From an uncultured Bacteroidales bacterium (GTDB lineage: Bacteria; Bacteroidota; Bacteroidia; Bacteroidales; UBA932): a stretch of DNA of 64,000 nt. The notes beneath the pieces were generated by a model. It was not told the DNA's origin and searched no databases. It saw only the letters and a program-made list of their open reading frames with translations. How positions within the stretch are numbered: position 1 is the first letter of the stretch; each line of letters opens with the position of its first letter. Shown here piece after piece: positions 45,997 to 63,800 of the stretch. Position numbers and translations under genes: made by a program. The stretch covers positions 123,088-187,087 of the forward strand of contig CAKVAS010000005.1 of the NCBI GenBank assembly GCA_934725015.1. The letters run 5' to 3'.

Positions 45997-47358
45997 TCAC
46001 ATGGTGTTCAGGATTGGGGCAATCTCCTCAAGCGAGGTCTCCCCGGATTCATAAAGGGCCAGCGCGGATTCGCGGAGCGTCCGCACGCCTTTCTGAGACA
46101 GGATGCCGCTGACGTCGCGGGCATTTTCGCGGACGGCGTAGGACAGGGAATCGTCAATGCGGATGACCTCATAGATGGCCTTGCGGCCGAGGTAGCCGGT
46201 GTAGTGGCACTGCGGGCAGCCAACGGCCTTGCCGGAGGAGGACTTGCAGTGAGGACAGAGAAGCCGGACAAGCCGCTGCGCGACGCAGGCGACGAGGGTC
46301 TCTGAAATCAGGTAGGGATGGACACCCATGTCGGCGAGCCTCGTGATGCAGCCCCACGCGCTGTTCGTGTGCAGGGTGGAGAGCAGGAGGTGACCGGTCA
46401 GAGAGCTGCGGACTGCCATCTCGGCGGTCTCCTCGTCGCGGATTTCCCCAAGCATGATGATGTCCGGGTCCTGGCGCAGGAAAGTCCGCAGAGCCACCGG
46501 GAATGTCAGCCCGATTTCCTCCTTGAGCTGAACCTGGTTGATGCCGTCGAGGGTGTATTCAATCGGATCCTCGATGGTGAGGATGTTGTTGTCGCCCCGG
46601 TTCAGCCGCTCAAGCGTCGCATAGAGCGTCGTGCTCTTTCCCGAGCCGGTCGGACCGCTGATGAGCACAAGCCCGTGGGGACGGCCGACCGCGTCGAGAT
46701 AGTCCCGAAGCTGACGCTCGTCGAAGCCCAGTTCATCAAGGGAGATGTGCCGCCCGTCACGCGAGAGCAGGCGCAGGACTATCTTCTCCCCGTAAATCGT
46801 CGGCATCACCGATGTCCGGATGTCAAACTTGACGTCGCCACGCGAATACATTATCCTCCCGTCCTGCGGAAGCCTCTTCTCCGCGATGTCGAGGTTCGAC
46901 ATGATTTTGATCCGGTTCACGATGCCCGGATAGCGGTCGCGTCCGACGACATGGCGCTCAATCAGCTTCCCATCCACCCGGAAGCGCACCCGGCACCTGT
47001 GCTCCGAGGGTTCAAGGTGAATGTCGCTCGCACGCACACGGAATGCCTCCTCCACGAGTTCCCCGACAAAGTCCTGCCCGCCCAAGGCTTCACTCTCTGA
47101 ATGCTCCTGCACGCCGGTCTGCCGGTAGTTTGAGGACAGCAGCCTCGTCAGTTCGTCCGGAGCCACGGGATGCAGCGAGAGCCGCAGTCCATACACCGTC
47201 TCAACCTCCTCAACGACAGCGTCATAGGCCTTCCCCTCGTCGCAGTAGCACGCCACCTCTCCGTCAGATTCCCGTCCGAACGGGACAAGGCGGTAGTAAA
47301 AGGCCTCGTCACCGGTGAACAGCTGCAGGGCCTCAGTCGAAATCTTTTGTGGTTGCAT
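45997..47358 (-). CDS. type II/IV secretion assembly ATPase (GspE/PilB family)
   Basis: GspE-N-type N-terminal domain, Walker A GPTGSGKSTTLYA, Asp and His boxes, and the tetracysteine motif CPHC...CPQC. Confidence 0.92.
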   Translation of the reverse strand: MQPQKISTEALQLFTGDEAFYYRLVPFGRESDGEVACYCDEGKAYDAVVEEVETVYGLRLSLHPVAPDELTRLLSSNYRQTGVQEHSESEALGGQDFVGELVEEAFRVRASDIHLEPSEHRCRVRFRVDGKLIERHVVGRDRYPGIVNRIKIMSNLDIAEKRLPQDGRIMYSRGDVKFDIRTSVMPTIYGEKIVLRLLSRDGRHISLDELGFDERQLRDYLDAVGRPHGLVLISGPTGSGKSTTLYATLERLNRGDNNILTIEDPIEYTLDGINQVQLKEEIGLTFPVALRTFLRQDPDIIMLGEIRDEETAEMAVRSSLTGHLLLSTLHTNSAWGCITRLADMGVHPYLISETLVACVAQRLVRLLCPHCKSSSGKAVGCPQCHYTGYLGRKAIYEVIRIDDSLSYAVRENARDVSGILSQKGVRTLRESALALYESGETSLEEIAPILNTM

Positions 47359-47468
47359 AATTCTTAATATCGTTTAGGTCTTATATACCCCAGTGCACAG
47401 ATTAAAGCCATTATAACATAGATAATTATTAGCATCATCCATTCTTTCGACTTTCCTATCCAGAAACC

Positions 47469-48002
47469 CTACAGCGTGAACAATGCCGCGAATATCAACA
47501 AAAGGACAATTATCAAGGGAAGTGACCCCTCATCCTTACATTTTGAGGCATAATCCCCCTGCTCCAAACGCAATAGTATTCGTTCGGGAAATACCATGAC
47601 ACCGGGCCAATAGTTCCTCTTTTTCCAAGGAACAAATGGAGTCCAATAACAACGGCCGCCAACTTTCCAAACATTCCAGGACAAGGCTCCTTTCCAAAGC
47701 CAAAAGACTTGTCGCCTGTAATCTGAAGAAACCGGTGCAGTTGCATACAAAGTCCAAAAACCATCTCTTATCCCCACATACACAGAAGTATGAGAATACA
47801 ACACCACATCATCCGCCAGAATCTTTTCCAATGAAATATTTTCTTCGGCGGAATATCGGTGGCTATATACACAGATAATGTCACTATCCAATGCGTATTC
47901 ATCAATTGCCACGAACTGAAAATACTGACGTCTGTCATCCGGCCATCTTATTTCAAAGACATCTCCGGGAACCGGTTTTCTATGTTTCATTGTTTTTACC
48001 AT
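47469..48002 (-). CDS. hypothetical protein, AT-rich (candidate orphan immunity protein)
   Basis: 177 aa, no signal peptide. It is the second gene downstream of the Rhs2 tip and sits in a visibly AT-richer block. It has a hydrophobic C-terminal tail. Confidence 0.55.
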   Translation of the reverse strand: MVKTMKHRKPVPGDVFEIRWPDDRRQYFQFVAIDEYALDSDIICVYSHRYSAEENISLEKILADDVVLYSHTSVYVGIRDGFWTLYATAPVSSDYRRQVFWLWKGALSWNVWKVGGRCYWTPFVPWKKRNYWPGVMVFPERILLRLEQGDYASKCKDEGSLPLIIVLLLIFAALFTL

Positions 48003-48035
48003 TTTGTATGTAACACATTAGGAACAGGATGCTTA

Positions 48036-48974
48036 TTACATAAAAACAAAGAAAGGGTCATTGCAACAAAAGAATACGGCCTCAAAATTATCATAGCCAA
48101 GCGTATCATACAACCAGTCGAAAACCGGCTGACCGTCCCTTATTGACAGAACGATGTTTTCATACACATAGACGCCCTCCGTCGGAACGCTCGGAACGGC
48201 ATTCGCTTCGTCATCCTTTATTCTTCGAGGAATCTTGTCCGATATGTGATTGACATACATCATGTAGGCATCCCCATGCCATGACGAAACCAGCGGAGCG
48301 GAAAGTTCCAGCGGCAGTTCATGCCTTTTTATCCTAACGCCACGACGAGTTCTTTTGCAAGGTAACGCATTCATCAGCAGCATCCGATCATCTTTCTGCA
48401 TCCATATTCCCCAAACGCCCCTTATCACAAAGAAGTTCCATCCGTCGTGCAGCTTCATGAAACGGACAAGAGTCTTATATTCCGCCAGAGCATTTCGACG
48501 ATGCCCCTCCGGAGATATTGGAATGACACTGTTGATAAATGCATACTCAAATTCGTCATTATTCAGATTTTCATAATCCATTACCCATGGCCATTCATAG
48601 CCTGTACTATATTTTGTAAGGGGAAATTCCGTCACAAGCCGATTAAGTTTGCCTGACATGAGTACATGCCGATATAGCAAGATTCCGTTATCGATGACAG
48701 AGACTCGTCCTATCGAATCACGCTCCAACAATTCTGATAAAACCTTTGTTTTCCGTAACTTCTTCCAGTTAATGCATCTGACCGGCAATGCATATGCAAC
48801 CAAAGCCGTGTCTGAATCCGAGATATTCCCAACTTCGTCTTCATCAAACTGACCGCGAGAGCGGGCGAACTCAGCAGCATCCATAAATAAACGACCGCGA
48901 GACGGCAGGCTGTCACAGACATTGATTGTCAACATCTGCAACAACGCCAATAATATGTTAAGAGTTAATTCCAT
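48036..48974 (-). CDS. hypothetical protein, AT-rich (candidate cognate immunity protein of Rhs2)
   Basis: Starts 7 nt after the Rhs2 stop. 312 aa, no family recognised. Confidence 0.6.
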   Translation of the reverse strand: MELTLNILLALLQMLTINVCDSLPSRGRLFMDAAEFARSRGQFDEDEVGNISDSDTALVAYALPVRCINWKKLRKTKVLSELLERDSIGRVSVIDNGILLYRHVLMSGKLNRLVTEFPLTKYSTGYEWPWVMDYENLNNDEFEYAFINSVIPISPEGHRRNALAEYKTLVRFMKLHDGWNFFVIRGVWGIWMQKDDRMLLMNALPCKRTRRGVRIKRHELPLELSAPLVSSWHGDAYMMYVNHISDKIPRRIKDDEANAVPSVPTEGVYVYENIVLSIRDGQPVFDWLYDTLGYDNFEAVFFCCNDPFFVFM

Positions 48975-48980
48975 ATATCA

Positions 48981-51900
48981 TCAAAGCTTAAAAATGTTTA
49001 TGAGATTATACAAGTTATTAAAATTATACTTAATTCGCCCTCCTACTCCAGAAGGATTCATCAACCACATCTTTATACGAAAATTATCATAAATAACAAT
49101 TTTGCTGATTGCCGTCGAATGTCCCATTCCTTTCCATAATCTCATTTCATATATCATGACATGATTATTTTGCATTCTATCTGCAATTAAATCCGCATAT
49201 TCCAAAACCTTATCCATAGGCAACAATGACTCGTTCCTCTTCAATTCATAACTCGCAGACATCCCATTATTTCGATACATATCTCCCAATGTTTTATCAC
49301 ATAATTCTGCATTCGGATAATTCTGTCGCAATACAGCCACATCATCTGTCGAGCCATTGTAATATGTGTCGATTGAACGGAAGGTCTCATAACGGCAATC
49401 CAGTTCTCCCACCTGATTCATCTGTGGCAAATCTATTGACACACTGCGCACAATTCGCCCTCCGTGAAGAAAATTTCGTCCGTCCTTGACTGCGCTTATA
49501 CCACCAGCCAGACCAGTGCACAAACCTCCAGCCAAGCCTCCACCTATAGCTCCAAGAGCAGCTATTCCCAAAGACTTGCCAAAATTTTCACCACTTATCA
49601 GACTATTACCTAAACCATTTATAAAGCCACCTGCCGCGCCACTTGCAGCCCCTATCTTAAATCCAGTCGAAAAACACGAAAGTGCAGTTGCAGCATTTGA
49701 AGTGCCCCATAATCCTGCAGAGAATCCAGTGCCTGCAAGACTGGAACTAACACCGGCGCCGATGCCGGCACTAACCGCCCCTGCAAATGCGCCAACTGCA
49801 AAATATCCTAAACCTTTCCATGTAAATTCGCAACCATTGGCAAGCCAATTCACGATGCCACCAACAGCTGCACCGATTATCAGATGCCAGTATTCTCCAC
49901 TTGGGTCAGTGTAACTCAACGGATTGTTGAGGCCGTAGGAGTAGCGGTTGAAGGACTGGGTGAAGTCAGGAGCCTGCACATACGGGTCTGGCGAGAGGAA
50001 GCGGCAGAGGAGAGGGTCGTAGAGACGGGCGTTCATGTTGATGAGGCCGAACCACGGGAGGTGCTCGTGACCGGTGAAGCCCCGGCCGAGGTAGAGCGTC
50101 GGCTCTGTACCCGGAGCGTAAATCTCCTGCGTTTCAGGGTCGCGCAGCCGTCCCCACGGGTCGTAGCTGTACTCGGCGAGGAGCGTGCCGTCGGCCGTCA
50201 CGATGTGGGTGATGCTGCCGAGATAGTCCCTGCCTATGTTCAGAGGTGTCCAGCTGCCGGAGCCCTCGCGGACGAGAACCATCGGGGCGGAGTAGGCGTC
50301 GCCGCCGAGGTAGAGGCGTTCGGTCGATGCGCCGCCGGACCTGATGTCCTGCTCGTAGCGGCCGCCGATGTAGTAGCGCGTGAGTTCAGGCGAGACGCCC
50401 TCGGCGTAGAGCATCTTCACGCGGTCGCCGCTGCCGTTGTAGGTGAACGACGCGCTCTTTCCGCCCTCGACAAGGCGAGACGGACGGCCGTAGCAGGTGT
50501 AGCTGACGGTCTGCTCGCGGGACGGGACGAGGGAGTCGTCCTCCGGGGTGAGGGAGGTCACCTGATACGGGCGGTCAGAGTTGCCATAAGCCATCTCGCC
50601 TATGCCTCCGACTGAAGTGACATTGCCGGACGATGAGTAGCAGACTGTCCTGTCATCCATTTTTACAAGACGGTTCAGAGCGTCATAGTTGAACGATTCC
50701 GACAAATTGCGGGTGTTGTCCTTTCGGGAATCAAGGTTGCCGGAGAGAAGCCTGAAACTATATTCAAAGTCCATAACGCCGTCAATCTTCCGGGAAACCG
50801 GCATACCTGAACTGCTGTAGCCGTACTCCCTCGTGACCTCCCCGGTCGTAACACGCAGCGGCATCCCCAAGTCGTTCTCTTCCTCAAGACGCATAACAAC
50901 AGTTCCCTCCGAGAGAACAATGCCGATGCCATGTCCGTTTGAATAGAGGTAGTTCTCTGTCGCGATGTCACCCGACTGAGCCGTATATCTTATGCTGTTC
51001 ACGCGACTTCCCGCTCCATAAGCATAGTTCTTCAACAGCCACTTCCCATCCGGAACAGTTTCCTTTTCCGTCAGAACGCGGTCGTATCGGTCGTAGGTGT
51101 AGGTCTTGGAAGTTCCGTTAGTCGAGACTTCGGAAGCGAGCCGACCGTAACTGTCATAACTATATGAGGTCGAATACTCTCCGAGTCTGTCAGTCTTTGT
51201 GAGTCGCCCGAACTTGTCAAAATAAGACACAATCTGTCCGTTTGGATTCGTCTGCGTGCGCACCGACGTGCCGTCCGCATTCCATGCCGTCGTGTCGGTC
51301 TGCACTCCGGCGCTCGGGTCATCAATCCTAATACGCCGTCCATAACGGTCATAGCCGAATGTTGTTGTAACGCCTCCTGCCACCACAGACGACGGCTGGG
51401 CGTCATCGCGACGAATGTAGGTGATGGAACCACCCGGATCATCTACTTGCCAAACATTCCCGAGAGCATCATACTTCACAGTCTTGCTTATACCATTGCG
51501 CCACTCGGTGACGGTGTTTCCTGAATAGATGCGACGGGTTGTCTTGTCCGGAGTCGAGACTATCGTCGAACGTCCGTAATTATCATACGAATAGTATATC
51601 CATGCAGCAGGTCCCGGTCCCCTATACGGCATTGTTTCACGGGACAGCTGCCCCTTGGAATCATAGGCATAGTCCGTCTTCTGCCATTGCCCGTCAAAGC
51701 GGAGGTTTTCAGTATGGACTTTGCGACCAATTCCGTCATAATGTGTGACTGTCGTAGGGGCGACATTGGACGACTCCGTCACTGTGAGGATTCCTTGACC
51801 ACCCCATGCGAGTGTCCGTGTCGTAATTGCGCCGTCCGGGGTTTCTATACGAAGGACATTACCCAATGCGTCGTAAGAAATTCTTGTCGTGTCGCCGTGG

Positions 51901-54900
51901 TGGTTCACGATGTGCTCCGGCTTTCCGAAGCGGTTGTAGTCCGCATAGCGCGTCACCAGCCCGAGGGCATCGGTCTCGGAGGTCAGAAAATGTCCGTCAG
52001 AAGTGTAGGTCCGGCTGACGCCGACATACTCGGAGGCGCCAAAGTTAGCTGTGCGTTCCGACAGGACATTGCCGAAATCATCGTATTCATAACAAGTTTC
52101 TGAAACTGTCTTTGTCTGGTCAAATTCGTCATTGACAAAAACTGATGCCCCCGATGCCGTACCCGTTGGGCTTGCCGTTGTGAATTTTCCTACAGAACCA
52201 CGGCGCGATTTCTTATACACCAGCCTGCATCTGTCATCATATTCGTATTCCGTCTTCCATGAAATGTTACCAAGTGTCCTTGCGATTACATGAGGGTTGA
52301 TTCTTGAACCTATAGTATATTTTGCTGTCAGTTCCGCATCCGTGAGTCCCAAGACATATTTTTCTTTTGTCAGAGAATTGCTGTAGGAATATGTTGTTCG
52401 TTCACCTTTTGTCGTTCCTGTACCTATTCTCTTGACAATAACCTTCTTCACCGGTAAATCATAATCACCATAAGCAAGTTTCGTTGTAGTCATGACATTC
52501 GTCAAGCTGTCAGCGTGTTCCGACATTATCAGACGGGGATTCATTTTCCCATATTCCGTGCTGTTTGCATCATAAGTGTTCACGATTGTCTCGAACGGCG
52601 TGTCAGGAGAGCTGAGCAGGGCCTTCGAGGAACGGAGCGGAACACCTAGTTTCTCCGGGGCATTTTCCTGAACCGAAACCACCTCCGCGACTTTGTCCTC
52701 GCAGCGAACCTTGCCGAAGCCGCAGAATCCGAGGCCGCCGCTGCCGGAGACCGCATCATAGTAGGTGTATTCCGCATCCGCGACCCTGTGACCTGTTTTG
52801 TCCGGGTTGCCATAAGTCGTGGTTTTATGCAGGAGAGCAAGCGGGAAGGCAACTCGTGCGAACCCGTCCGCGCTCGAATATGAACGGTTGCCGTCATTGC
52901 CATATACAGCATCCGAGTCCATCAGGTTGGCATATTCATTTGTCTGGAGCACTCCGTAGCTGTCCTCCATCTCGGCGACAAGACGGTTCGCGCCACGGTT
53001 GTCTGAAAACTTGTAGCTCGTAATCGTATGCCCGTCAATGGTCATGAGGCCGCTTATTGCGTTATATCCGAGTATATTGTTGTAAATCACGCCTTTTGAG
53101 GACGGCATAGAGGCTGTGGAGAATATCGCGGATTCACTGTAGAAATTTCCGTTGTCGTTCAGATGGCACCGAAGTTTCTTTCCACGGAAGCACAGCATAT
53201 CAGAAAGCCCGTCACGGTTCACATCCATGAACATATATCCGTCTCCCGGACGGCGCTGCCCCAGATTGAGCACCGTTCGTTCAAATTTCTCACCCGTATA
53301 TGAATATATCGACCACTCCGACCCGCCGTCAATAATGCCGCCTACGGAACCGGGCGAGCCGGTGCCTGTGTTTCCTCCACTATAGTTCGGGTCAAGGTAG
53401 GTTTCTCCCGGAGGAACCACGATGTCGAGGTAGCCGTCGCCGTTCCAGTCGGCACAATAGTACGGTTTTCCGATTAAGGAGCCGTAGTTCAGGCCCTGGA
53501 CTGTCTTGTAAGGGTCCATCGTCACAAGTCCTGAAGAATACGCGGCAGTCGTACTGACACGGTGATAGACCGAATATCGGTACAGCGTTATACCTCCGTT
53601 GGGTTCAATATAGCATAACTCCGTTTTGCCGTCATTATCAAGGTCACAGGCAAACATTTGGGACAAAGCGACAAGGTCTATGTGAGAACGGTCCGTGCAT
53701 TTGCCGGTATTCAAATCAACGATTGCAGTCCTTGAAGTTCGCTGTACTCCACGGAAGTCCCTATTCAGAGACACGGCCACCATGTGGGCTCCGACCCCGT
53801 CAAATTTCCCGAACAGATAGGTTCGTTGGTAAGGACTTACCCAATAGTCATCATCCTCAGACTTGTCCCTTATCACGCCATAGGTTTTTATATCAAAGGA
53901 ACGGCTATCGAATCTTCTTGCCCCTGCATTATAGTCATATATTGTGATTCTCAGCTTTGTATAGTCTCCGTCTGTCCCGACAAAATTAACCTTTACAATC
54001 TCATCCACGCCATCGTCATCAACGTCCAATGTTTCAATCGCCTGGAAACCAGCCTCCACATCCATAATAATTTCCGTAGTACTGGATGACACATCCGGAA
54101 TTACAACTATCTTGTCGGTTGCATTATAGCCACTCCCATACTTATAGAAATAACTTTTCTTAAATGCAGACGAGGCTGCCATAGAGGCAATCTGCACATA
54201 ATTGCTCTTGTCCGGCAGAATAATCACCCCGTCCGAAGTCGCACCGCTGAGGAACCGTCCGCGCAAATATCTCAGGTCCCCGGCAGGGAGGATGCTTACA
54301 TTCCGAGTATGGGCGACATAGAAGTCCGGACTGTCCGCAGGCTGCTCCTGATAGTGGAAGCGAAGAGGACGAAGGCCGGTCTCCCCCATCCGGCATCCGA
54401 TTGAAGCGAGCAGGTTTGCACCGAAGCGCGACTCGTGCGTCAGGGTGTATGTGTAGAGATTGTCGTCACCAGAGTTGGAGCGGACGGCTTTCAGAAGCTT
54501 GCGGCACTGGATTTTCTGACCTGCGTAGTACGAAATCGTCCCGGAATCGACACTCTCATAATCAAAGTATATCCTGCCGGTCGGTACTCCATACTTATCG
54601 TAGTTATAGAAAATGGTCGAGGGATAATAAATACCGGTTGGCTCCTGACAGTCGTAGAAGAAGTCTATGACCGTTCCGTTGATGTCCCTCATCTTCGTCA
54701 GGGGATATGAAATCCGGTTGGAAGAGTTCTGAGCATTGGACGGGAATCCATACACAGCCTTGGAACCGTTTGGATAGAGGACATCAAACCAGACAGTCTT
54801 GCCGTTTACCACATGAGGACAGACAAGGATGTGACCGCGTGCCGTCTCATACGGATAGTCCCCGGAAAGTTCCTCAATCGAGGATTTCACAATCGGCACG

Positions 54901-55265
54901 CCGTCAAGGGCGAACAGCGGACTTGTGTCCTCCAGACTCGCGGCGCTGACATGACCATGATAGTAGCTGTTGGCGTTAATCATTGTGATTGCCGACAGGC
55001 CGCCTACTGTCCAGCCGTGTCCGGCGATTCCGGTTCCCGACTGGCTGCTGTATTGCAGAGACAGGCTCGGAAGAAATGATCCGAAAGGCGTTGTCGCGAT
55101 GGGAACGGTGTAGGTGCGTGCCCCGGTCGGAGTAACATCCGCCGTATAGGGTATCTGCCCCACGGGATAAGACGAGAAGTCATCCGTGACGGGGGCGGCA
55201 AGGGCTGTCGTCGCGAGACTTGCCGCAATGAGGGATGCAAGTGTTTGAATTATATGATGTTTCAT
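48981..55265 (-). CDS. Rhs/YD-repeat polymorphic toxin 2, Tc-toxin BC-fusion-like (SpvB N-terminus, FG-GAP propeller, YD shell, Rhs core, Gly-zipper, papain-like tip)
   Basis: The real start is MKHHIIQTLASLIAASLATTALAAP at 55265 (codon 157 of the 2250-aa track ORF). SpvB-like YTVPIATTP...GIAGHGWTVGGLSAI. FG-GAP-type motifs DVDDDGVDEIV, DLDNDGKTELC, DWNGDGYLDIV and DVNRDGLSDML. The core ends at NNPLSYTDPSGE (about 49893) and a 303-aa tip follows. Confidence 0.92.
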   Translation of the reverse strand: MKHHIIQTLASLIAASLATTALAAPVTDDFSSYPVGQIPYTADVTPTGARTYTVPIATTPFGSFLPSLSLQYSSQSGTGIAGHGWTVGGLSAITMINANSYYHGHVSAASLEDTSPLFALDGVPIVKSSIEELSGDYPYETARGHILVCPHVVNGKTVWFDVLYPNGSKAVYGFPSNAQNSSNRISYPLTKMRDINGTVIDFFYDCQEPTGIYYPSTIFYNYDKYGVPTGRIYFDYESVDSGTISYYAGQKIQCRKLLKAVRSNSGDDNLYTYTLTHESRFGANLLASIGCRMGETGLRPLRFHYQEQPADSPDFYVAHTRNVSILPAGDLRYLRGRFLSGATSDGVIILPDKSNYVQIASMAASSAFKKSYFYKYGSGYNATDKIVVIPDVSSSTTEIIMDVEAGFQAIETLDVDDDGVDEIVKVNFVGTDGDYTKLRITIYDYNAGARRFDSRSFDIKTYGVIRDKSEDDDYWVSPYQRTYLFGKFDGVGAHMVAVSLNRDFRGVQRTSRTAIVDLNTGKCTDRSHIDLVALSQMFACDLDNDGKTELCYIEPNGGITLYRYSVYHRVSTTAAYSSGLVTMDPYKTVQGLNYGSLIGKPYYCADWNGDGYLDIVVPPGETYLDPNYSGGNTGTGSPGSVGGIIDGGSEWSIYSYTGEKFERTVLNLGQRRPGDGYMFMDVNRDGLSDMLCFRGKKLRCHLNDNGNFYSESAIFSTASMPSSKGVIYNNILGYNAISGLMTIDGHTITSYKFSDNRGANRLVAEMEDSYGVLQTNEYANLMDSDAVYGNDGNRSYSSADGFARVAFPLALLHKTTTYGNPDKTGHRVADAEYTYYDAVSGSGGLGFCGFGKVRCEDKVAEVVSVQENAPEKLGVPLRSSKALLSSPDTPFETIVNTYDANSTEYGKMNPRLIMSEHADSLTNVMTTTKLAYGDYDLPVKKVIVKRIGTGTTKGERTTYSYSNSLTKEKYVLGLTDAELTAKYTIGSRINPHVIARTLGNISWKTEYEYDDRCRLVYKKSRRGSVGKFTTASPTGTASGASVFVNDEFDQTKTVSETCYEYDDFGNVLSERTANFGASEYVGVSRTYTSDGHFLTSETDALGLVTRYADYNRFGKPEHIVNHHGDTTRISYDALGNVLRIETPDGAITTRTLAWGGQGILTVTESSNVAPTTVTHYDGIGRKVHTENLRFDGQWQKTDYAYDSKGQLSRETMPYRGPGPAAWIYYSYDNYGRSTIVSTPDKTTRRIYSGNTVTEWRNGISKTVKYDALGNVWQVDDPGGSITYIRRDDAQPSSVVAGGVTTTFGYDRYGRRIRIDDPSAGVQTDTTAWNADGTSVRTQTNPNGQIVSYFDKFGRLTKTDRLGEYSTSYSYDSYGRLASEVSTNGTSKTYTYDRYDRVLTEKETVPDGKWLLKNYAYGAGSRVNSIRYTAQSGDIATENYLYSNGHGIGIVLSEGTVVMRLEEENDLGMPLRVTTGEVTREYGYSSSGMPVSRKIDGVMDFEYSFRLLSGNLDSRKDNTRNLSESFNYDALNRLVKMDDRTVCYSSSGNVTSVGGIGEMAYGNSDRPYQVTSLTPEDDSLVPSREQTVSYTCYGRPSRLVEGGKSASFTYNGSGDRVKMLYAEGVSPELTRYYIGGRYEQDIRSGGASTERLYLGGDAYSAPMVLVREGSGSWTPLNIGRDYLGSITHIVTADGTLLAEYSYDPWGRLRDPETQEIYAPGTEPTLYLGRGFTGHEHLPWFGLINMNARLYDPLLCRFLSPDPYVQAPDFTQSFNRYSYGLNNPLSYTDPSGEYWHLIIGAAVGGIVNWLANGCEFTWKGLGYFAVGAFAGAVSAGIGAGVSSSLAGTGFSAGLWGTSNAATALSCFSTGFKIGAASGAAGGFINGLGNSLISGENFGKSLGIAALGAIGGGLAGGLCTGLAGGISAVKDGRNFLHGGRIVRSVSIDLPQMNQVGELDCRYETFRSIDTYYNGSTDDVAVLRQNYPNAELCDKTLGDMYRNNGMSASYELKRNESLLPMDKVLEYADLIADRMQNNHVMIYEMRLWKGMGHSTAISKIVIYDNFRIKMWLMNPSGVGGRIKYNFNNLYNLINIFKL
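49990..50459. repeat. roughly 470-bp tract with no differences found by eye from 58872-59341 (Rhs core-encoding region)
   Basis: Base-by-base reading with a constant offset of 8882. Flanks remain highly similar over about 49905-50575, then fall to clearly diverged sequence. Confidence 0.85.
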
Positions 55266-55735
55266 ATTGCTGATTCGAGAATTATGCGGAGGATTATCCG
55301 GAGGGTAAGACAGGCGGCGAGGGCGGTGACGAGCGGGATGTCGCGGGTCGCGGCGGTTCTGGAGTGGCGGGTGTAGGGAAGCCAGAAGAGGAGGGTCGCG
55401 AGGGAGGAGACGATCAGGAAGAGGAGGAAATGGCGGAGCGGGAAATATGGGGTCAGACAGAGGACGAAGAGGAGGTCGCCGGTGCCGAGCATATCCGGAA
55501 GACGGCGTTTCCGCAGTCTTGCCCAGAGGGAGAGGGCGGCCCACAGGAGAACGCAGGTCAGGAGATTCCGGACGAGGTTCGACAAAGGCAGGCGCAGGCC
55601 GCCGCTCTCCATCACGGACACGAATATTACCACGGCGCCGAAAACCGCCAGATTGAGAATCCCTATCCTCCTGCACCTCAGGTCCGAGAACGCCAGCGCC
55701 GCAAGAGGCGGGAGACACATGAGACTCCACCACAT
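55262..55735 (-). CDS. short A24-family prepilin peptidase (no methyltransferase domain)
   Basis: 157 aa, polytopic, with two Asp motifs in context (AFSDLRCRRI and LGTGDLLFVL). The stop TGA overlaps the Rhs2 ATG (ATGA). Confidence 0.75.
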   Translation of the reverse strand: MWWSLMCLPPLAALAFSDLRCRRIGILNLAVFGAVVIFVSVMESGGLRLPLSNLVRNLLTCVLLWAALSLWARLRKRRLPDMLGTGDLLFVLCLTPYFPLRHFLLFLIVSSLATLLFWLPYTRHSRTAATRDIPLVTALAACLTLRIILRIILESAI

Positions 55736-55769: not shown

Positions 55770-56183
55770 TCAGTCCTTCACGAGCTCCTTGAGCTTCTTG
55801 TCCTGGTCAATCTCCCAGACATTGAACTGCCCGTCCTTGTCGAAATCCACCACGGAGACGGCCTGGGCCTTGAAGCCCGAGTCGCCGGCCTCGACAATCT
55901 CGATGCGGTAGTTGGCGTTGCCGCCGTCGGTGACGAGAGGCTGCTGTTCGAAGCCAAGCTCTTCCAGATTGTCACAGTATCTTGAATAGGTGTAGAAATA
56001 ACTCTTCTGCAAGGTGTGGACAAAGGCGAGCTGCTGCTGAGCCTCCATGCTCTTGGCCTTGGAAATCAGCGGCATGAGGTTCGGGAGGGCAATCAGGACG
56101 AGTATGCCGATTATTACAAGGACTACCAGCATCTCCGGAAGCGAGAATGCCCGGAGACGCTTTTCCGAAACGCGCCGCATCAT
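55770..56183 (-). CDS. major pilin / GspG-like pseudopilin
   Basis: MMRRVSEKRLRA|FSLPEMLVVLVIIGILVLIALPNLMPLISKAK class III signal with Glu+5. A DFDKDGQ acidic loop lies near the C-terminus. 137 aa. Confidence 0.85.
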   Translation of the reverse strand: MMRRVSEKRLRAFSLPEMLVVLVIIGILVLIALPNLMPLISKAKSMEAQQQLAFVHTLQKSYFYTYSRYCDNLEELGFEQQPLVTDGGNANYRIEIVEAGDSGFKAQAVSVVDFDKDGQFNVWEIDQDKKLKELVKD

Positions 56184-56554
56184 TGCCCGTCCTCCCGCTT
56201 TTCTGACGGCATCTCCGCCGGAGTCTCCTCCTTTGCAGGCATTGCTTCCGGAGTCCCGGCAGTCCGGCTCCCGATTGTCTCCGGATTTCCGGCAGTCCGG
56301 TTCCCGGTTGTCTCCGAAGACCCTGAGGTACGGTTTCCGGCACTTGCGGAAGCCCCCGCCGACGAGGATTTCTGAGGAGTCATCGATGATGGTCGGGCAG
56401 TTTCCGCCGTTGACTGCTGCTCCGGAAGGGTGACCGTCACTCTCCCGATTCGGTTTCCGGCCGCGTCGTAGCTGTAGTTCACGACCTTTGTCTGAGCCTG
56501 CGCCGCAACGGCAAGCGCAAGGCAGCAGTGCGCTGTTATTAGTGTTCTTTTCAT
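56180..56554 (-). CDS. small secreted protein with one YD repeat and a repetitive low-complexity tail
   Basis: Signal MKRTLITAHCCLALAVAAQAQ, then VVNYSYDAAGNRIGRVTV (a single YD unit), then an S/T/G/P/E-rich tail with an 11-aa repeat GNRT(S/A)G.(S/P)ET.. Overlaps the pilin gene start by 4 nt. Confidence 0.65.
   Translation of the reverse strand: MKRTLITAHCCLALAVAAQAQTKVVNYSYDAAGNRIGRVTVTLPEQQSTAETARPSSMTPQKSSSAGASASAGNRTSGSSETTGNRTAGNPETIGSRTAGTPEAMPAKEETPAEMPSEKREDGQ
56248..56346. repeat. three tandem copies of a 33-bp repeat inside the small YD protein gene
   Basis: ccggagtcccggcagtccggctcccgattgtct, ccggatttccggcagtccggttcccggttgtct, and a third degenerate unit. Confidence 0.8.
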
Positions 56555-57337: not shown

Positions 57338-57871
57338 TTATTCTGTTATTACTCCTTCAAATATCATTAACATATAATCGCCTACCACGCCCTTATCCCT
57401 AATGTAGCTTACTGTCGCATTATCAGACATGATTGTCCTTATGCACTCTTTGTATGCAATGTCGGCATTACTATCTATTCCGGAAATCAATCCCAATGCA
57501 AATAATTTATTCTCAGGACATAGATTATAGGCATTCAACATTTGCATCCTCGCCTCTTCCAATTCCATCTTGAACAACCACTCGCACCATGTGGCAAGCC
57601 ATCCACTCCAAAACAAAAAGTCTGCATTCGCGTAGAAAATCGATTTTCCTTCAATATAAACATCATATATTTTTTGCGCAGTAATTGAAACCACATCAAA
57701 CCCATTGACATCTGGCTGCATCGGAATTGCCTCCAACACATATAAAGCATTTAAATATGCATCAGGAGTCTCATCATACTCTTTTGAGTTAACAATTTGT
57801 AATATGTATTCCATTGCAGTACGCCAATCTTTTTTTGCGACAAGTTCTCGCAGAGATTCTTTCCAAGTCAT
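57338..57871 (-). CDS. hypothetical helical protein, AT-rich (candidate cognate immunity protein of Rhs3)
   Basis: Starts 13 nt after the Rhs3 stop. 177 aa, no signal peptide, no family recognised. Confidence 0.6.
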   Translation of the reverse strand: MTWKESLRELVAKKDWRTAMEYILQIVNSKEYDETPDAYLNALYVLEAIPMQPDVNGFDVVSITAQKIYDVYIEGKSIFYANADFLFWSGWLATWCEWLFKMELEEARMQMLNAYNLCPENKLFALGLISGIDSNADIAYKECIRTIMSDNATVSYIRDKGVVGDYMLMIFEGVITE

Positions 57872-57883: not shown

Positions 57884-60800
57884 TTATGGTATATACATCG
57901 TCCCCAACATGGGCACACCATCGACAACATAGCCTCTAACCCAAACGTCATACCCATATATATTGGCATTTAATTGATAAAATCCAGACGCAGGATATCG
58001 ACCATTTATTGAGTACATTGCCGTCCTCACTAATCCTCGTTCACCCAGAAGGTCAACCAATGGGCCAAAATTATGTTTAGAGGCTAATATATGATGTATT
58101 TTGTTCGGATCGGACAAAGCCTTTGCAATTCCTTGTTCGATTAAATCATCTGGGATAAAATTACTACCCATCGGTTCTTCCACAGACGGCAATTTCAAGC
58201 CTTTTTGCGGAGAAGGACTCTGCGGAGAAGGATCCTGAGGAGAACGCGAAAAGTCAGCTAAATCAGCCGGTTTTTCAAGAGCACCTTCTCTAATAGTTGG
58301 AGAGGTCTTGTCCGAGATAACCTGCCCCGGTCTCATTGGGACATCCAAAGGTCGTCCATTCCAGAAATTCTGATGCCGGAATGCTGCATTAAGTCCCCCT
58401 GCGACACCACCGGCAAGTGCGCCGCCAAGACCTCCATACAAGGCTTGTATTCCACCGGCTTTAAGAGCATCCGAGAAACTTCCGCCACCCAGCAGCGTCA
58501 TGCCGAAACCATTAGTAAACCCTCCGACAAAGCCGCCAACCCCACCAGCGATAGCACCTCCGGCAAAGCCTCCGATGCCAATTGCAGAACCGACAGCGGC
58601 TCCAGCCGCGCCTCCGGCGAAACCGGCAATTCCACCAATTAAACCGCCGCCTATCATATAACCGGCCATTTCCCAACCGGTAGCACCCTTGGAATGGCCT
58701 ATTCTATAGCCACAATATGCGCCAATTGCGACACCAATCGCCGCGCCTATAATCAAAGCCGTGGTAATGACGAACTCCCCGTTCGGGTCAGTGTAGGAGA
58801 GCGGATTGTTAAGACCGTAGGAGTAGCGGTTGAAGGACTGGGTAAAGTCCGGGGCCTGTACATACGGGTCGGGCGAGAGGAAGCGGCAGAGGAGAGGGTC
58901 GTAGAGACGGGCGTTCATGTTGATGAGGCCGAACCACGGGAGGTGCTCGTGACCGGTGAAGCCCCGGCCGAGGTAGAGCGTCGGCTCTGTACCCGGAGCG
59001 TAAATCTCCTGCGTTTCAGGGTCGCGCAGCCGTCCCCACGGGTCGTAGCTGTACTCGGCGAGGAGCGTGCCGTCGGCCGTCACGATGTGGGTGATGCTGC
59101 CGAGATAGTCCCTGCCTATGTTCAGAGGTGTCCAGCTGCCGGAGCCCTCGCGGACGAGAACCATCGGGGCGGAGTAGGCGTCGCCGCCGAGGTAGAGGCG
59201 TTCGGTCGATGCGCCGCCGGACCTGATGTCCTGCTCGTAGCGGCCGCCGATGTAGTAGCGCGTGAGTTCAGGCGAGACGCCCTCGGCGTAGAGCATCTTC
59301 ACGCGGTCGCCGCTGCCGTTGTAGGTGAACGACGCGCTCTTCCCGCCCTCGACGAGGCGAGACGGACGGCCGTAGCAGGTGTAGCTGACGCTCTGCTCGC
59401 GGGACGGGACGAGGGAGTCGTCATCAGGGGTGAGGGAAGTCATCTGATACGGCCTCCGAGGGATGTTGCCATAGCTCATCGTCCCGACGCCATCGACTTT
59501 TGTGACATTGCCGTATGAGGTGTATGTTACCTTGCGCCCCTCCATCTCGGTCAGGCGGTTCAGCCCGTCGTAGGCGAATGTCTCCGAGAGACTGCGCGTG
59601 TTGTCCTGACGGACATACAGGTTGCCGGTCGGGAACTGGAAGGCATACTCAAAATCCATGAGGGAGCCGTCGTCCATCTTCCTTCCGGCAGGATGACCGT
59701 AAGGAGTGAAGCTGTAGGTTCTCGACACCTCGCCGGTCGTGACGCGAACCGGAGCGCCGAGGTCGTTTTCCTCGTCAAGGCGCATCACCACAGTGCCCTC
59801 GGAGAGGACGATGCCGGTGTTGGTCCCGTTCGACCAGATGTAGTTCTCCGTCGTGATGTCCCCGGTCTGATTCGTGTATCTGACGCTGTTCACCCGACTG
59901 CCCTTGCCGTAGGCGTAGCTCTTCTGAAGCCATTTGCCGTCCGGGACGGTCTCGCGCTCAGTAAGCACGCGGTCGTAACGGTCATAGGTGTAGGTCTTGC
60001 CCGTTCCGTTCGTGGAGGTCTCGGACTCGAGGCGGCCGAAAGCGTCGTAGGCGTATGAGGTGGAATATTCGCCGAGGCGGTCTATCTTCGTGACGCGGCC
60101 GAACTTGTCTATGTTCGTGACAATCTCCCCGTTCGGGTTGGTCTGCGTCCGCAGCGCCGTTCCGTCGGCGTTCCAGAGAGTCGTGTCGGTCTGCGTGCCC
60201 GCGCTCGGGTCGTCAATGCGGCAGCGACGGCCGTAGGCATCGTAGGAGAAGGTCGTGGCGATGCCGCCGGTGACCACGCCGAACGGCTGTCCGTCGTTTC
60301 GGAGGGTATATTCTATCCTGCCCCCGTCGTCAACTATTTTGACAAGGTTGCCCACAGCGTCGTAAGTCCGGCTGCGCGTCAATCCTTTGGCGGTCTCGAC
60401 GACAGTCGCACCGGAATAGGACCACGAGGATTCTGAACCGTCCGCATTCCGCTTCCGGGTCTTGCGTCCGTAGTCATCGTAGGTGTATTCTGCCCAGAGC
60501 CTTGCCGGAGCGGCATCGTTCTGTTGAGCAAGACGATATGGCAGAGATGTGCGATACAGCTGCCCCTTTGTGTTGTACTCATAATCGACGCAGCGCCATT
60601 TCCCGTCGAAGCAGCGGGTCATCGTACGGACTTTCCGGCCGAAGGAGTCGTAGTGGGTGACGACAGTCGGCTTGGTGTCGGAGGTCTCGGTCACCGTGTA
60701 GGTTCCCGCTCCGCCCCATTCGATGCGCTTCCATGAACGGTTGCCGTCCGGAGTGACAGTGCCTGTAACATTCCCCCAGCTGTCGTAGGACACTGAGGTC

Positions 60801-63800
60801 GTGTCTCCGTGGTGGTTCACGATGTGCGCGGGCTTTCCGAACCGGTTGTAGCCTGCATAGCGCGTCACCCGTCCAAGTTCATCCGTTTCGGATGCCACAT
60901 GACGGTGAGAGGCATCATAAGCCCACGATTTGGTCAGGAACTCAGTCGCCCCGTTACGCGCGGTCTTTTCGGATATGACATTGTCGTAGTCGTCGTAGGT
61001 CCACTCGGTCTGGGAGACTAGTCTTGTCTTGTCCAGATTGCGGGGTGGAATCAATGTCTGAACTGACGAGCCGGAGGACTGAACTCGCAAAGAATCCCTA
61101 ATCGGACGTATTTCCTCAGGAAGACACTCGCCGAGATAATCCCGACGGACGGAAAGACGATGTCGGCTGTCGTAAGTATATGTAGTCCTTTCCCGCCACT
61201 TTTTTGCAGCCACGCTCGCCCCCGTCTTATCAACAGTCGTCTTTGTCGGCAAGCCGAGAAGATAACAGGATGAGGACACACTATGCGAATATGTATAGGA
61301 TGATGTTTCCTGAAAAATATTGCCCGTCCCGACACGCCTTGTCACGGAAATTTTTGACGGATAGTCATAGTCTCCGTAAGTCGTGCTCGTCGTGGTCTTG
61401 AGTCCCGTCAGATTGTCCGTCACTACAGATTTCGTCAGACGAGGGTTCAGTTTCCCGTAGGTCGTTCTGTGGCTGTCGTAAGTGTTCTCAACGGTCTCGA
61501 ACGGATTGTCCATTCGGCTGAGCAGAGCCTTCGTGGAACCTGTAAGCACGCCACGCTTCTCCGGGGCGTATGTCTGAACGGCGGCGACCCTGTTCACATA
61601 ATCCAGACAGCGCATCTTCCCGAATCCGCAGAATCCCTGTCCCTTGCTGTTATACACGGCATCGTACCATGTGTAGTAATTATCCACGGTCTGCTCTGAA
61701 CTCAATTCGTTTGAGCTCGGGAATACCTTCACATGATAAATCATATTGGCCGAGAACGAACGACGGGAGAAACCGGATGCGAGGGAATACGTCCGAGAGA
61801 CATCCTTCTGATAGACATTCGCAGACTCGGACATATCCTCGTACTCATTGACATGAGTCACACCATAACTGTCCTCGAAGCACGTCAGCAGCCTGTTCTT
61901 GCTGAGATTGTCGGAATATTTATAGCCCATTACCCGGAATCCATCGACTACGACGAATTGGGTAGGTTCACTATAGCGCAGGAGATTCATTGGAATCACC
62001 CCATCATTCTTAGGCAGTGTGACGGACGATATGTTCGCATTTTTAGTAAAACCGGCCTTGTGGTTTATGAAAAACGAGAGTTTAGTGCCGTTTATTGTGA
62101 ATTTCAGAAGATCCGCAAGCCCGTCGCCGTTGATGTCCATAAGCATGAAACGGTCATTTTCAGCTCTTGAGCATATTTCGTAGTTATATCCCCAAAATGA
62201 ATTTCCTGTGAAACAATATGCCCTCCAAACATTTCCCGAATCTTTCCCCGGAGCCCTGACAATGTCCAGCAGCCCGTCTCCGTTTATATCCGAATAGAAA
62301 AACATCTGATCCTTCAGGTCATTGTATGTCAAACCGGTGAAAGTCTTGAACTTATAGAATGTGCGGTCGCTTGCAAGATATGAGTAACGGTCAAGTCCAG
62401 ATGCCGTCAGATTGCAGAGTTCCGTGATACCGTTGCCGTCAATGTCAGCCATGACAAGTCTGTATTCGCCTCCGTTCCCGAGGTCAAACAGTTTGCTTTC
62501 GCTGCACAGCCCGGTCTTGAGGTCAATCACAGAAGTGTAGGACTGTCGCCCATTGCCTCTAAAGTCTGTGTTGTAGGATATGGTGACAAGCTGAGCACCC
62601 CCGCTCGCGTCAAATTTTCCGAACCAAAACGCTCTTCGCTGAGGACTCCACAATTGGTTTCCGTCGTTTACGACTCCCGTAACCTTCGTGTCGATGACTG
62701 TCGAATCAAGAGCCGTTGCCGAACCATTGAACTTGTAGATCTTGATTCGCAGCTTTGTGTAGTTCCCGTCGAGTCCGTTGAAATTAACCTTGACAATCTC
62801 GTCTGTCCCGTCATCATCCACATCCAGCGCTTCGATTGTCTGGAAACCGGAATCCGCCCTGATAGTCAAATCAACAGGACTTCCGACACACGGTGCAACA
62901 ATGATTGCCTGATTCGCAGAATATGAACTATTGCGCTGATAATATTTCTTGAACCAATGCGTTTTGGTCGCTACAACTGCGTATGTATCAAATATCGGCA
63001 GCATTATCACGCCGTCAGAATAGTTGCCTGACATGAACTTGCCGCGAACATAACGAACGCTGCCGCTCGTAAATGCCTGTCTCAGGTAAGTGCCGTCACT
63101 GGTTTCCTGAAAATCCGGCACATACTGATGTCCGAGAGGGAGATTGCCGTAAGTGAAAGTCAATGGAGACAGTCTGACATCTCCGCTGGTGCAGCCGATT
63201 GCATCAAGAACATAGGAATACGCGATGGTGTCGAACGATTGCGTCAGATTATATGTACACAACAATTCCGAACCGGAATATACCGAGATGCTTTTAAGAA
63301 GTCGTCCCAAAGACACCCGTTGCCCGGCATAATAGGAATGGTAGGAATCAACGCGGTTGATTTCATAGGAGAATGTGATGCGGCCGATTTCTTTGGAGGC
63401 CTTGTCCTTGAGCCGAATGTCCCAAGGCCAATACTGCACGCCGTGGTCGTAGTCCGCATGATAATTCACCACAATGACATTCCCATGCAAGTCCGTCATT
63501 TCCGTCAAAGGATACGATGTCCTTGTCTCGGAATTGCCCTTGAAGCCATACACCGCCCTTGAACCATTCGGAAGCAGAGCCTCAAAGTATTTCACGACCT
63601 CACCGGACTTGACCATTTTGACGAGTATATGCCCGGTTGCCGTCTCGTATTGATATTCCTCCTCCAAGGCAGTCACGGATGTGTTCACAATCCGCACGCC
63701 GTCCAAAGCAAAAACAGAAGTCTTGTTGTCAATTGACGGAGCCAGCGCAGTCCCATCGTAGTAGAGGTTTTTACCCGTCATGGTAATCGATGACAATCCC

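What the first reader, a model, noticed from the sequence alone, without database searches (positions are those of the whole stretch)
49905..50575. A roughly 470-bp tract with no visible differences is shared by Rhs2 and Rhs3 just upstream of their unrelated toxin tips
Seen in sequence:
- 49990-50459 and 58872-59341 (constant offset 8882) show no difference that I could find by eye.
- High similarity extends to about 49905-50575 and 58785-59455.
- This encodes ...SLVPSREQ.VSYTCYGRPSRLVEGGKSASFTYNGSGDRVKMLYAEGVSPELTRYYIGGRYEQD...[41 protein letters not shown], the end of the shell and the Rhs core.
- Upstream of the tract the two genes are clearly diverged at both nucleotide and protein level. 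Downstream of DP(S/N)GE the tips are unrelated.

Inference: the pattern is the footprint of recent gene conversion or recombination. It supplies a ready homology arm for swapping tip-plus-immunity cassettes between the two loci.
Basis: partly seen in the sequence, partly recalled or inferred. Interest (0 to 1): 0.65.

Follow-up and report, generated by a model that had tools for sequence, protein, structure and literature searches.

The report
Shared recombination tract in two Rhs genes
Two neighbouring toxin-delivery (Rhs) genes of an uncultured gut Bacteroidales bacterium share a 470-base identical stretch just before their unrelated toxin tips; this is a real footprint of repeated gene conversion, but a well-known way for such genes to evolve, not a new mechanism.

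Summary
Window 49990-50459 and 58872-59341 are identical for 470 nt, and 97% identical over 671 nt. The rest of the two minus-strand genes is 35-75% identical, with saturated third-codon positions.

It is not chance: the longest run in permuted data is 35. It is not selection, because synonymous sites are identical and an antisense ORF is rejected. It is not an assembly chimera, because independent metagenome contigs span it or break inside it.

The tract encodes the end of the YD shell plus the Rhs-associated core (TIGR03696).

- **Related species:** their Rhs2 and Rhs3 orthologues carry the same block with the same 5' edge, at about 92% identity, and orthology signal is erased inside it. So this is long-standing concerted evolution with a very recent event on top.
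- **Other strains:** they differ from the window only by four clustered SNPs inside the tract. This is either a fresh Rhs3-to-Rhs2 patch or a bubble collapse, so true identity is at least 99%.
- **Tip replacement:** a related species has a different tip-plus-immunity cassette at the Rhs2 locus, joined at the tract's 3' end.

This is a new instance of known Rhs/TcC core-mediated recombination. No tip exchange between the two loci was seen.

The parts
49905..50575 (-). Copy A of the homogenised tract, in Rhs2. It encodes the last YD repeats and the Rhs-associated core, ending at the D of ...[12 protein letters not shown].
   Evidence: 97.2% identity to copy B. TIGR03696 Rhs_assc_core, 56.8 bits against a cut-off of 32.5, on tract residues 142-228. 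GC3 0.84-0.90.
49990..50459 (-). Exactly identical 470-nt core of copy A.
   Evidence: Permutation test.
58787..59457 (-). Copy B of the tract, in Rhs3. The identical part is 58872-59341.
50099..50133 (-). 35-nt patch holding the only four differences between the window and three other assemblies of the Rhs2 locus. The window has Rhs3's derived state A,G,T,A. The others have the outgroup-like state G,T,C,G.
48981..55265 (-). Rhs2, 2094 aa: signal peptide, SpvB, FG-GAP propeller, RHS/YD shell, core, tip.
   Evidence: gene call and Pfam.
57884..64000 (-). Rhs3. Its start lies about 320 nt beyond the window end. It is 2145 aa in locus L083.
48981..49904 (-). Rhs2 tip: a Gly-rich hydrophobic linker plus a 175-aa papain-fold Cys/His toxin domain (48984-49508). 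GC3 is about 0.3.
47361..49892 (-). Replaceable cassette at the Rhs2 locus: the tip plus ORFs 48036-48974 (312 aa) and 47469-48002 (177 aa), which are candidate immunity genes. A related species has a different 1.3-kb cassette in its place.
57884..58786 (-). Rhs3 tip, unrelated to the Rhs2 tip. It gives a weak sub-threshold Ntox35 match. It is shared at about 90% with orthologues L002 and L003.
57338..57871 (-). Candidate Rhs3 immunity gene (177-aa ORF, called as 158 aa from 57814).
   Evidence: No family match.

Best explanation
Rhs2 and Rhs3 are diverged paralogues, about 50% identical at the amino-acid level. They lie in direct orientation 8.9 kb apart. Their last ~670 nt before the toxin tip form a homology island kept alike by repeated, presumably RecA-type, non-reciprocal recombination (gene conversion).

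The proposed history has three steps.
1. An ancestral event homogenised the block, with its 5' edge near 50570, before this species and its relatives split.
2. High identity then allowed further conversions confined to the block. The flanks are too diverged to extend them.
3. The window lineage shows the latest round, at 466-470 of 470 identical. This includes a possible ≥35-nt Rhs3-to-Rhs2 patch that other strains lack.

The tract encodes the part of the shell that any tip needs: the closing repeats and the Rhs core, which by analogy holds the autoproteolysis site. The same block serves as the left-hand arm when a tip-plus-immunity cassette is replaced by homologous recombination with incoming DNA. 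The conserved downstream gene serves as the right-hand arm.

Shown: the identity pattern, the phylogenetic switch, the strain polymorphism and the cassette replacement at the junction. Inferred: RecA dependence, direction and timing, and any exchange between the two loci.
For: - **Identity pattern:** an exact 470-nt run against a background of 35-75%. The permuted maximum is 35.
- **Synonymous sites:** third-position identity is 1.0 in the tract and 0.47 overall.
- **Incongruence:** the triplet test gives p of 1e-16 or smaller.
- **Paralogue-specific sites:** they are dense on both sides but only 4 lie inside 49905-50570.
- **Same block elsewhere:** the paralogues of a related genome, L001 and L002, step from 0.59 to 0.92 at the same edge. 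A third species, L036, is 96.5% identical over 173 nt. Other Bacteroidales pairs show 3'-core homogenisation of varying degree.
- **Independent assemblies:** they are otherwise identical over 5.5-6.2 kb and differ only at four clustered sites in the tract. The window state equals Rhs3's derived state.
- **Contig ends:** contigs L079, L080, L084, L085, L086 and L036 begin or end inside the tract, as expected of a true near-exact repeat.
- **Cassette replacement:** it is bounded at 49893 and 47360 in L053/L093.
- **Junction codons:** the last ~10 core codons of Rhs2 use the low-GC codons of its tip, placing the tip junction near 49920-49930.
- **Precedent:** 522 bp at 95% identity recombines experimentally in Salmonella rhs (PMC3967940). 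RHS-core direct repeats drive TcC tip replacement (PMC7861908).
Against: - **Direction is ambiguous.** The bulk of the tract is slightly closer to Rhs2 orthologues (22-24 differences against 33-36). The four-SNP patch points from Rhs3 to Rhs2. GC3 continuity suggests an Rhs3-like origin.
- **The window state may not be independently confirmed.** Rhs2 carrying Rhs3's four bases is seen only in the window and in scaffold ERZ28614082, which may not be an independent assembly. A second assembly labelled with the same sample accession (L078) has the other state. Bubble collapse could therefore explain the last 0.9%.
- **No recombinant between the loci was found.** None of the retrieved contigs joins an Rhs3 shell to the Rhs2 tip, or the reverse.
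- **No orphan fragments.** No displaced core-tip fragments lie downstream of Rhs2 or Rhs3.
- **No read-level data were available.**
Confidence: 0.85

Rival explanations
1. Assembly artefact. The identity was produced by repeat collapse, bubble popping or a chimeric join in a metagenome assembly.
For: - All available sequences are metagenome assemblies, and many contigs break inside the tract.
- Three assemblies show four differences that the window lacks.
- L078 is labelled with the same sample accession as the identical scaffold, but has the other state.
Against: - L078 and L081 run from unique Rhs2 shell sequence, through the whole tract, into the Rhs2 tip and the downstream genes. They differ from Rhs3's copy at only 4 of 470 positions.
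- Three other species have the same block at 92-96% between paralogues.
- The pairing of each shell with its tip is reproduced in orthologues: L002, L003 and L089 for Rhs3, and L078 and L081 for Rhs2.
- Only the last four positions can be an artefact. For that narrower claim I put the probability near 0.35.
Confidence: 0.04
2. Selective constraint, not recombination. The tract would be conserved because the protein core, a nucleotide-level element, or the antisense ORF 49884-50615(+) is under strong purifying selection.
For: - The tract is the most conserved protein segment of the family. It is 53-97% identical at the amino-acid level across 75 loci.
- A 243-aa antisense ORF coincides with it.
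Against: - Segments with 80% amino-acid identity elsewhere still have third-position identity near 0.45-0.5. The tract has 1.0.
- Between species, tract changes are mostly synonymous in the Rhs frame (30-43 synonymous against 7-15 non-synonymous). They are mostly non-synonymous in the antisense frame (6-11 against 31-51).
- The antisense frame has stop codons in L053 and L002.
- Orthologues differ by 5-10% in the tract, so no nucleotide-level constraint holds it fixed.
Confidence: 0.02
3. Each locus separately received an incoming tip cassette that brought the same long core arm from a shared external pool. This would be horizontal transfer, not exchange within the genome.
For: - In this family, orphan modules carry core arms of 37 to about 320 aa.
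- The last 25-85 nt of the core do travel with the tip.
- The tips have foreign, low GC.
Against: - The Rhs3 tip is old in this lineage, shared at about 90% with L002 and L003. Yet its tract is 100% identical to Rhs2's and only 92-93% to those orthologues.
- The tip-proximal 85 nt are the least alike part of the block, at 86%.
- The tract is GC3-rich like the host shell, not like the tips.
- The strain-level four-SNP patch matches the resident paralogue.
Confidence: 0.07

Closest known systems
Salmonella Typhimurium rhs-main / rhs-CT-orphan recombination (Koskiniemi et al. 2014, PMC3967940)
   Same: Both have a direct repeat of the core-encoding segment, immediately upstream of unrelated toxin tips. 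The sizes are similar: 522 bp at 95% there, 470 bp at 100% (671 bp at 97%) here. In Salmonella the repeat is shown experimentally to recombine and change which toxin is displayed.
   Different: Here both partners are full-length genes with their own diverged shells, 8.9 kb apart. Pilin and other genes lie between them. There is no main gene paired with an orphan fragment. No recombinant junction has been observed.
C-terminal displacement model of rhs evolution (Jackson et al. 2009, PMC2935791)
   Same: Both have a conserved GC-rich core, low-GC variable tips with an adjacent immunity gene, and tip replacement with the junction at the end of the core.
   Different: At the Rhs2 locus the old cassette was replaced outright, and no displaced orphan remains. 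That paper found recombination between cores at different E. coli loci to be infrequent, if it occurs at all. Here exchange between loci is the main signal.
RHS-core-dependent replacement of TcC hypervariable regions in Tc toxin loci (Song et al. 2021, PMC7861908)
   Same: Consecutive genes carry direct repeats of the RHS core. Homologous recombination between them is proposed to replace tips and change copy number. Rhs2 and Rhs3 also have the TcB-like N-terminal parts (SpvB, FG-GAP propeller).
   Different: Here the B-like and C-like parts are fused in one Sec-signal protein. No TcA gene is present in the window. The host is an uncultured gut Bacteroidales, and the genes sit inside a type II secretion / type IV pilus-like cluster.
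Concerted evolution of bacterial paralogues by gene conversion (for example tuf and rRNA operons; my own knowledge)
   Same: Paralogues are more alike within a genome than orthology predicts, with sharp tract boundaries and identical silent sites.
   Different: Here only a ~0.7-kb segment of a 6-kb gene is homogenised. It abuts a hypervariable module.

Membership tests
Rhs / YD-repeat polymorphic toxin | RHS/YD repeats forming the shell | tested here: met
   PF05593 RHS_repeat at E 3e-26 (Rhs2) and 7e-28 (Rhs3). PF25023 TEN_YD-shell among the precomputed hits.
Rhs / YD-repeat polymorphic toxin | Rhs-associated core domain (TIGR03696) ending in a PxxxxDPxG-type motif at the core/tip boundary | tested here: met
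   TIGR03696 at 56.8 bits against a cut-off of 32.5, on tract residues 142-228. The motif is [11 protein letters not shown] / [11 protein letters not shown]. The residue after G is E, not the usual L. Autoproteolysis was not tested.
Rhs / YD-repeat polymorphic toxin | Variable C-terminal toxin followed by a cognate immunity gene | tested here: inconclusive
   The tips are unrelated. The Rhs2 tip is a papain-fold domain with invariant Q, C and H. The downstream ORFs have no family match. Toxicity and immunity are untested.
T6SS-delivered Rhs effector | N-terminal PAAR or VgrG linkage, with a T6SS neighbourhood | tested here: not met
   No PAAR or VgrG hit. There is a signal peptide plus SpvB and FG-GAP instead. 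The neighbours are T2SS/T4P-like genes.
Tc-toxin BC-type cocoon (TcB-TcC) | SpvB N-terminal domain, FG-GAP propeller, RHS shell and core in that order, with a partner TcA | tested here: inconclusive
   The domain order is met. No TcA-like gene lies in the 64-kb window: no Pfam hit among the ORFs scanned. Not every ORF was scanned.
Gene-conversion tract (concerted evolution) | A block of elevated identity, including silent sites, bounded by diverged flanks | tested here: met
Gene-conversion tract (concerted evolution) | Phylogenetic incongruence: orthology signal outside the tract, paralogue identity or loss of orthology signal inside | tested here: met
Gene-conversion tract (concerted evolution) | Non-reciprocal transfer with an identifiable donor and recipient | tested here: inconclusive
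   The four-SNP patch indicates Rhs3 to Rhs2. The bulk of the tract is ambiguous.
C-terminal displacement | Different tips at orthologous loci, with the junction at the end of the core | tested here: met
   Window against L053/L093/L001: identity is 88-90% up to 49893, then unrelated, then 93% again from 47360.
C-terminal displacement | Displaced orphan core-tip fragments downstream of the full-length gene | tested here: not met
   No extra tract copy lies in the window. No remnant of the alternative tip was found. Orphans do occur in other genomes of the family, such as L019, L041 and L046.

The most novel reading that the evidence does not exclude
The tract is an actively maintained recombination module, not a passive footprint. 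It would be a GC3-enriched homology island (0.9, against 0.6 in the Rhs2 shell) with a fixed 5' edge across species. It would undergo conversion often enough to be polymorphic among near-clonal gut strains. It would let a T2SS/T4P-embedded array of Sec-dependent Rhs cocoons in uncultured Bacteroidales re-assort tips between differently built shells. GC-biased gene conversion would be visible at the scale of a single gene.
Probability: 0.25. Interest if true: 0.45.

Novelty: new member of a known kind. Interest (0 to 1): 0.3.

Why it matters
This is a clean, well-bounded natural example of concerted evolution confined to the Rhs core. It comes with three layers of comparative evidence.
- An old homogenised block shared by related species.
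- A patch polymorphism at strain level.
- A precise cassette replacement at the same junction.

It extends core-mediated tip turnover to uncultured human-gut Bacteroidales carrying fused TcB/TcC-like, signal-peptide Rhs proteins. That process has been documented mainly in Enterobacteriaceae and Tc loci.

In practice, the tract is a repeat that breaks short-read assemblies and can mis-pair shells and tips. Annotations of such loci in metagenome-assembled genomes need care.

It does not change how we understand Rhs toxins to diversify.

Tried and rejected
- **Antisense ORF 49884-50615(+) as the cause of conservation.** Rejected. Substitutions are synonymous in the Rhs frame and non-synonymous in the antisense frame. 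Two orthologues have stop codons there.
- **A fixed mobile cassette that starts at the tract's 5' edge.** Not supported. Orphan core arms in other genomes range from 37 to about 320 aa. The short 'orphan-like' proteins found with the tract were contig-end fragments, or the last pieces of frameshift-fragmented full-length genes (L087 and L088).
- **The search for homologous proteins with the tract.** It returned only proteins under 400 aa, so it could not list alternative tips on full-length genes.
- **Recombinant junctions between the loci** (Rhs3 shell to Rhs2 tip, or the reverse). None found among the retrieved contigs.
- **A pilE-like G-quadruplex element near the tract.** None. The only G4 motif in the window is at 2919-2944.
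- **Family assignment of tips and candidate immunity genes by Pfam and NCBIfam.** Nothing above threshold. Rhs3 tip gives Ntox35 at E=0.06 and Rhs1 tip gives Ntox10 at E=0.002, both below the cut-offs.
- **The source genome.** It is not among the GTDB species representatives at 100%. The best hits are 96-97% identical at the amino-acid level.
Full report
**Anatomy.** The window carries three large Rhs-type genes, all on the minus strand.
- Rhs1 is 37999-44256. It has DUF6443 plus RHS repeats and belongs to a different family.
- Rhs2 is 48981-55265, 2094 aa.
- Rhs3 runs from 57884 to beyond the window end. It is 2145 aa in locus L083.

Rhs2 and Rhs3 are paralogues with the same build: signal peptide, SpvB N-terminal domain, FG-GAP propeller, RHS/YD shell, Rhs core, then a C-terminal tip. 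They are in direct orientation. The equivalent positions in their 3' parts are 8,882 nt apart.

**Checking the observation.** At offset 8882 there is one exact run of 470 nt, 49990-50459 = 58872-59341.
- The 5' flank in gene sense, 50460-50575, has 7 mismatches in 116.
- The 3' flank, 49905-49989, has 12 mismatches in 85.
- A codon-aligned sliding window over the whole genes gives nucleotide identity of 0.35-0.75 and third-position identity of 0.25-0.55 outside the block. This includes a stretch with 80% amino-acid identity. Both values are 1.00 inside.
- Permuting the match vector 2000 times never gave a run above 35 nt, or above 20 consecutive third positions against 156 observed.
- The tips after DP(S/N)GE are unrelated (BLASTP E=0.66).

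**What the tract encodes.** The 228 aa around it hit the Rhs-associated core model TIGR03696 above its cut-off, on residues 142-228. An RHS repeat lies just before that. The tract ends at the D of [12 protein letters not shown] (Rhs2) and [12 protein letters not shown] (Rhs3). It is therefore the closing part of the shell plus the core. By analogy with solved Rhs and TcC proteins (my own knowledge) this region also holds the autoproteolysis site.

**Not selection.**
- Silent sites are identical, whereas conserved protein segments elsewhere have saturated silent sites.
- Between species the tract does change, by 5-10%. It changes mostly synonymously in the Rhs frame, with 30-43 synonymous against 7-15 non-synonymous codon changes.
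- An antisense ORF (49884-50615, + strand) coincides with the tract, but it takes mostly non-synonymous changes and has stop codons in two orthologues. It is the usual artefact of a GC-rich sense frame.

**Not an assembly chimera, with one caveat.**
- Looking up neighbouring proteins in public assemblies gave independent contigs of the same or a nearly identical strain.
- L078 and L081 run from unique Rhs2 shell sequence through the whole tract into the Rhs2 tip and the downstream genes.
- L083 carries both copies and is 100% identical to the window.
- Several contigs (L079, L080, L084, L085, L086) start or stop inside the tract. One runs exactly from the Rhs3 copy to the Rhs2 copy with a 36-nt end overlap. 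This is the behaviour expected of a true near-exact repeat.

The caveat concerns L078, L079 and L081. They come from three assemblies, including one from a Hadza sample, and are identical to the window over 5.5-6.2 kb except for four SNPs. All four lie within 35 nt inside the tract, at 50133, 50127, 50109 and 50099. Those assemblies have G,T,C,G, which is the state seen in most outgroups. The window's Rhs2 has A,G,T,A, which is the state of Rhs3 in every assembly and is derived.

There are two possible readings. Either the window strain underwent an extra short Rhs3-to-Rhs2 conversion, or its assembler merged a four-SNP bubble. One other assembly also shows a single difference in the Rhs3 copy, at 59095. 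The two copies are therefore at least 98.6-99.1% identical in every strain seen, and 100% in the window.

**Comparative picture.** A scan of species-representative genomes with the tract protein found no identical genome. It did find close relatives among uncultured Bacteroidales.
- L001 and L002 come from one genome. L001 is the orthologue of Rhs2 and L002 of Rhs3.
- L053/L093 (UBA6408) carries an Rhs2 orthologue.
- L003/L094 (UMGS764) carries an Rhs3 orthologue.

Upstream of about 50570 each window gene is 80-97% identical to its orthologues and 50-75% to the other type. Inside the tract all six sequences are 88-98% alike, whatever their locus.
- Sites that distinguish the Rhs2 type from the Rhs3 type are dense on both sides, but only 4 fall within 49905-50570.
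- Triplet counts switch from 'Rhs2 groups with its orthologue' (438-443 against 60-70 sites) to 'Rhs2 = Rhs3' (32-34 against 9-12), with Fisher p between 1e-16 and 1e-28.
- In the related genome the two paralogues show no orthology signal in the tract (23/25/17).
- L001 and L002 step from 0.59 to 0.92 identity at the same 5' edge.
- A third species (L036) has copies 96.5% alike over the 173 nt that can be compared.
- More distant genomes show the same tendency to varying degrees.

The block is therefore a long-standing homogenised island. The window pair is its most recent and most complete state.

**Composition.** GC3 in Rhs2 is 0.5-0.69 along the shell. It jumps to 0.84-0.90 in the tract and falls to 0.30 in the tip. 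Rhs3 already has GC3 of about 0.8 for 1.5 kb upstream.
- The step in Rhs2 marks the tract as an imported segment.
- It hints at an Rhs3-like origin, or at GC-biased conversion.
- Direction remains unresolved, because the bulk of the tract is slightly closer to Rhs2 orthologues (22-24 differences against 33-36).

**Tip turnover at the junction.**
- In UBA6408 (L053, L093) the Rhs2 orthologue matches the window at 88-90% up to 49893.
- It then carries an unrelated 1.3-kb cassette: a tip with an HExxH motif plus a small lipoprotein-like ORF.
- It matches the window again at 93% from 47360, the start of the T2SS ATPase gene.
- L001 shares that alternative tip.
- No remnant of it exists in the window, so the cassette was replaced; it was not displaced downstream.
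- The last ~10 core codons of Rhs2 use the low-GC codons of its tip, placing the junction near 49920-49930.

This is direct evidence that the 3' end of the tract is where tip-plus-immunity cassettes are exchanged. The conserved downstream gene provides the other arm.

**The tips.** The Rhs2 toxin domain (175 aa) belongs to a rare family. It has 26 representative clusters among 1.84 billion proteins, and it is always C-terminal.
- Q32, D37, C38 and H130 are invariant.
- The AlphaFold model is confident (pLDDT 85).
- Its best structural matches are staphopain, C39 peptidases and a papain-like toxin.

The Rhs3 tip has only a sub-threshold Ntox35 match. The candidate immunity genes have no family match.

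**Relation to what is known.** Recombination through the conserved core is the accepted way Rhs and TcC toxins change tips.
- Jackson et al. 2009 proposed the C-terminal displacement model (PMC2935791).
- Koskiniemi et al. 2014 showed experimentally that 522 bp at 95% identity between rhs-main and an orphan recombines (PMC3967940).
- Song et al. 2021 proposed recombination between direct repeats of the RHS core in consecutive tcC genes (PMC7861908).

The present case is a new instance, not a new kind. Its particular features are these:
- The exchange is between two full-length, otherwise strongly diverged genes. Jackson et al. found recombination between cores at different E. coli Clade I loci infrequent, if it occurs at all.
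- The homogenised block is sharply delimited and shared across species.
- The block is polymorphic among near-clonal strains.
- The host and architecture are unusual: uncultured gut Bacteroidales, a fused TcB/TcC-like Sec-signal protein, and a position inside a T2SS/T4P-like gene cluster.

**Limits.**
- There are no reads, so copy phasing and depth could not be checked.
- Direction and timing are inferred.
- No recombinant between the two loci was seen. Because there is no shared sequence downstream of the tips, a crossover between the two tracts would delete or duplicate 8.9 kb. It would not swap cassettes.

**Verdict.** It is an ordinary but tidy example of a known mechanism.

Noticed in passing
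window 31173-56183 (minus strand): The three Rhs genes are interleaved with a type II secretion / type IV pilus-like gene set. It comprises T2SSF (31173-32222), PilN-like (34888-35832), secretin (44300-45988), T2SSE ATPase (45997-47358) and a prepilin-type pilin (55770-56183). The synteny is kept in related species (L053, L093, L003, L094). A functional link between this machinery and export of the signal-peptide Rhs proteins is conceivable but untested.
   Followed up: partly
window 35829-37991: Downstream of Rhs1 there is an array. It holds the main immunity-like ORF (37398-37991), then two units. Each unit is an 86-88-aa fragment of the Rhs1 toxin C-terminus (37220-37480, 36447-36713) followed by a ~200-aa paralogue of the immunity-like ORF (36610-37212, 35829-36431). 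The C-terminal halves of the three paralogues are nearly identical while the N-terminal halves differ. This is a second locally homogenised repeat (families D1, D4, D6 and D7).
   Followed up: partly
window 48984-49508 (minus strand): The Rhs2 toxin domain is a rare, unnamed papain-fold family. It has 26 clusters among 1.84 billion representatives, invariant Q/C/H, and Foldseek matches to staphopain and C39 peptidases.
   Followed up: yes
window 49905-50575 and 58787-60376: GC3 reaches 0.84-0.90 in the tract, against 0.5-0.69 in the Rhs2 shell and 0.30 in the tips. In Rhs3 the high-GC3 zone extends 1.5 kb upstream. This may be a signature of GC-biased gene conversion.
   Followed up: partly
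window 56180-56554 and 55268-55730; L083 3100-3480: Each of Rhs2 and Rhs3 is preceded by a small ORF of 124-152 aa. The one at 56180-56554 has a signal peptide and a single YD-like motif (YSYDAAGNRIGRV). No family match was found.
   Followed up: no
L053 3204-4502 (= L093 1868-3166): The alternative cassette at the Rhs2 locus of UBA6408 has a tip with an HExxH motif (MHEYGHT), suggesting a metallopeptidase-type toxin. It is followed by a small lipoprotein-like ORF.
   Followed up: partly
L087 5525-11086; L088 5293-10996: In two long MAG contigs the homologous Rhs gene is split into several ORFs. In both, one break lies just upstream of the position equivalent to the tract's 5' edge. This may be coincidence, sequencing frameshifts, or scars of recombination.
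   Followed up: no
window 40377-43554: About 3.2 kb of the middle of Rhs1 has no BLASTN counterpart in L053/L093. In those loci the alignments to window 43554 and 40377 abut. This points to an indel or a strongly diverged segment in Rhs1 between species.
   Followed up: no
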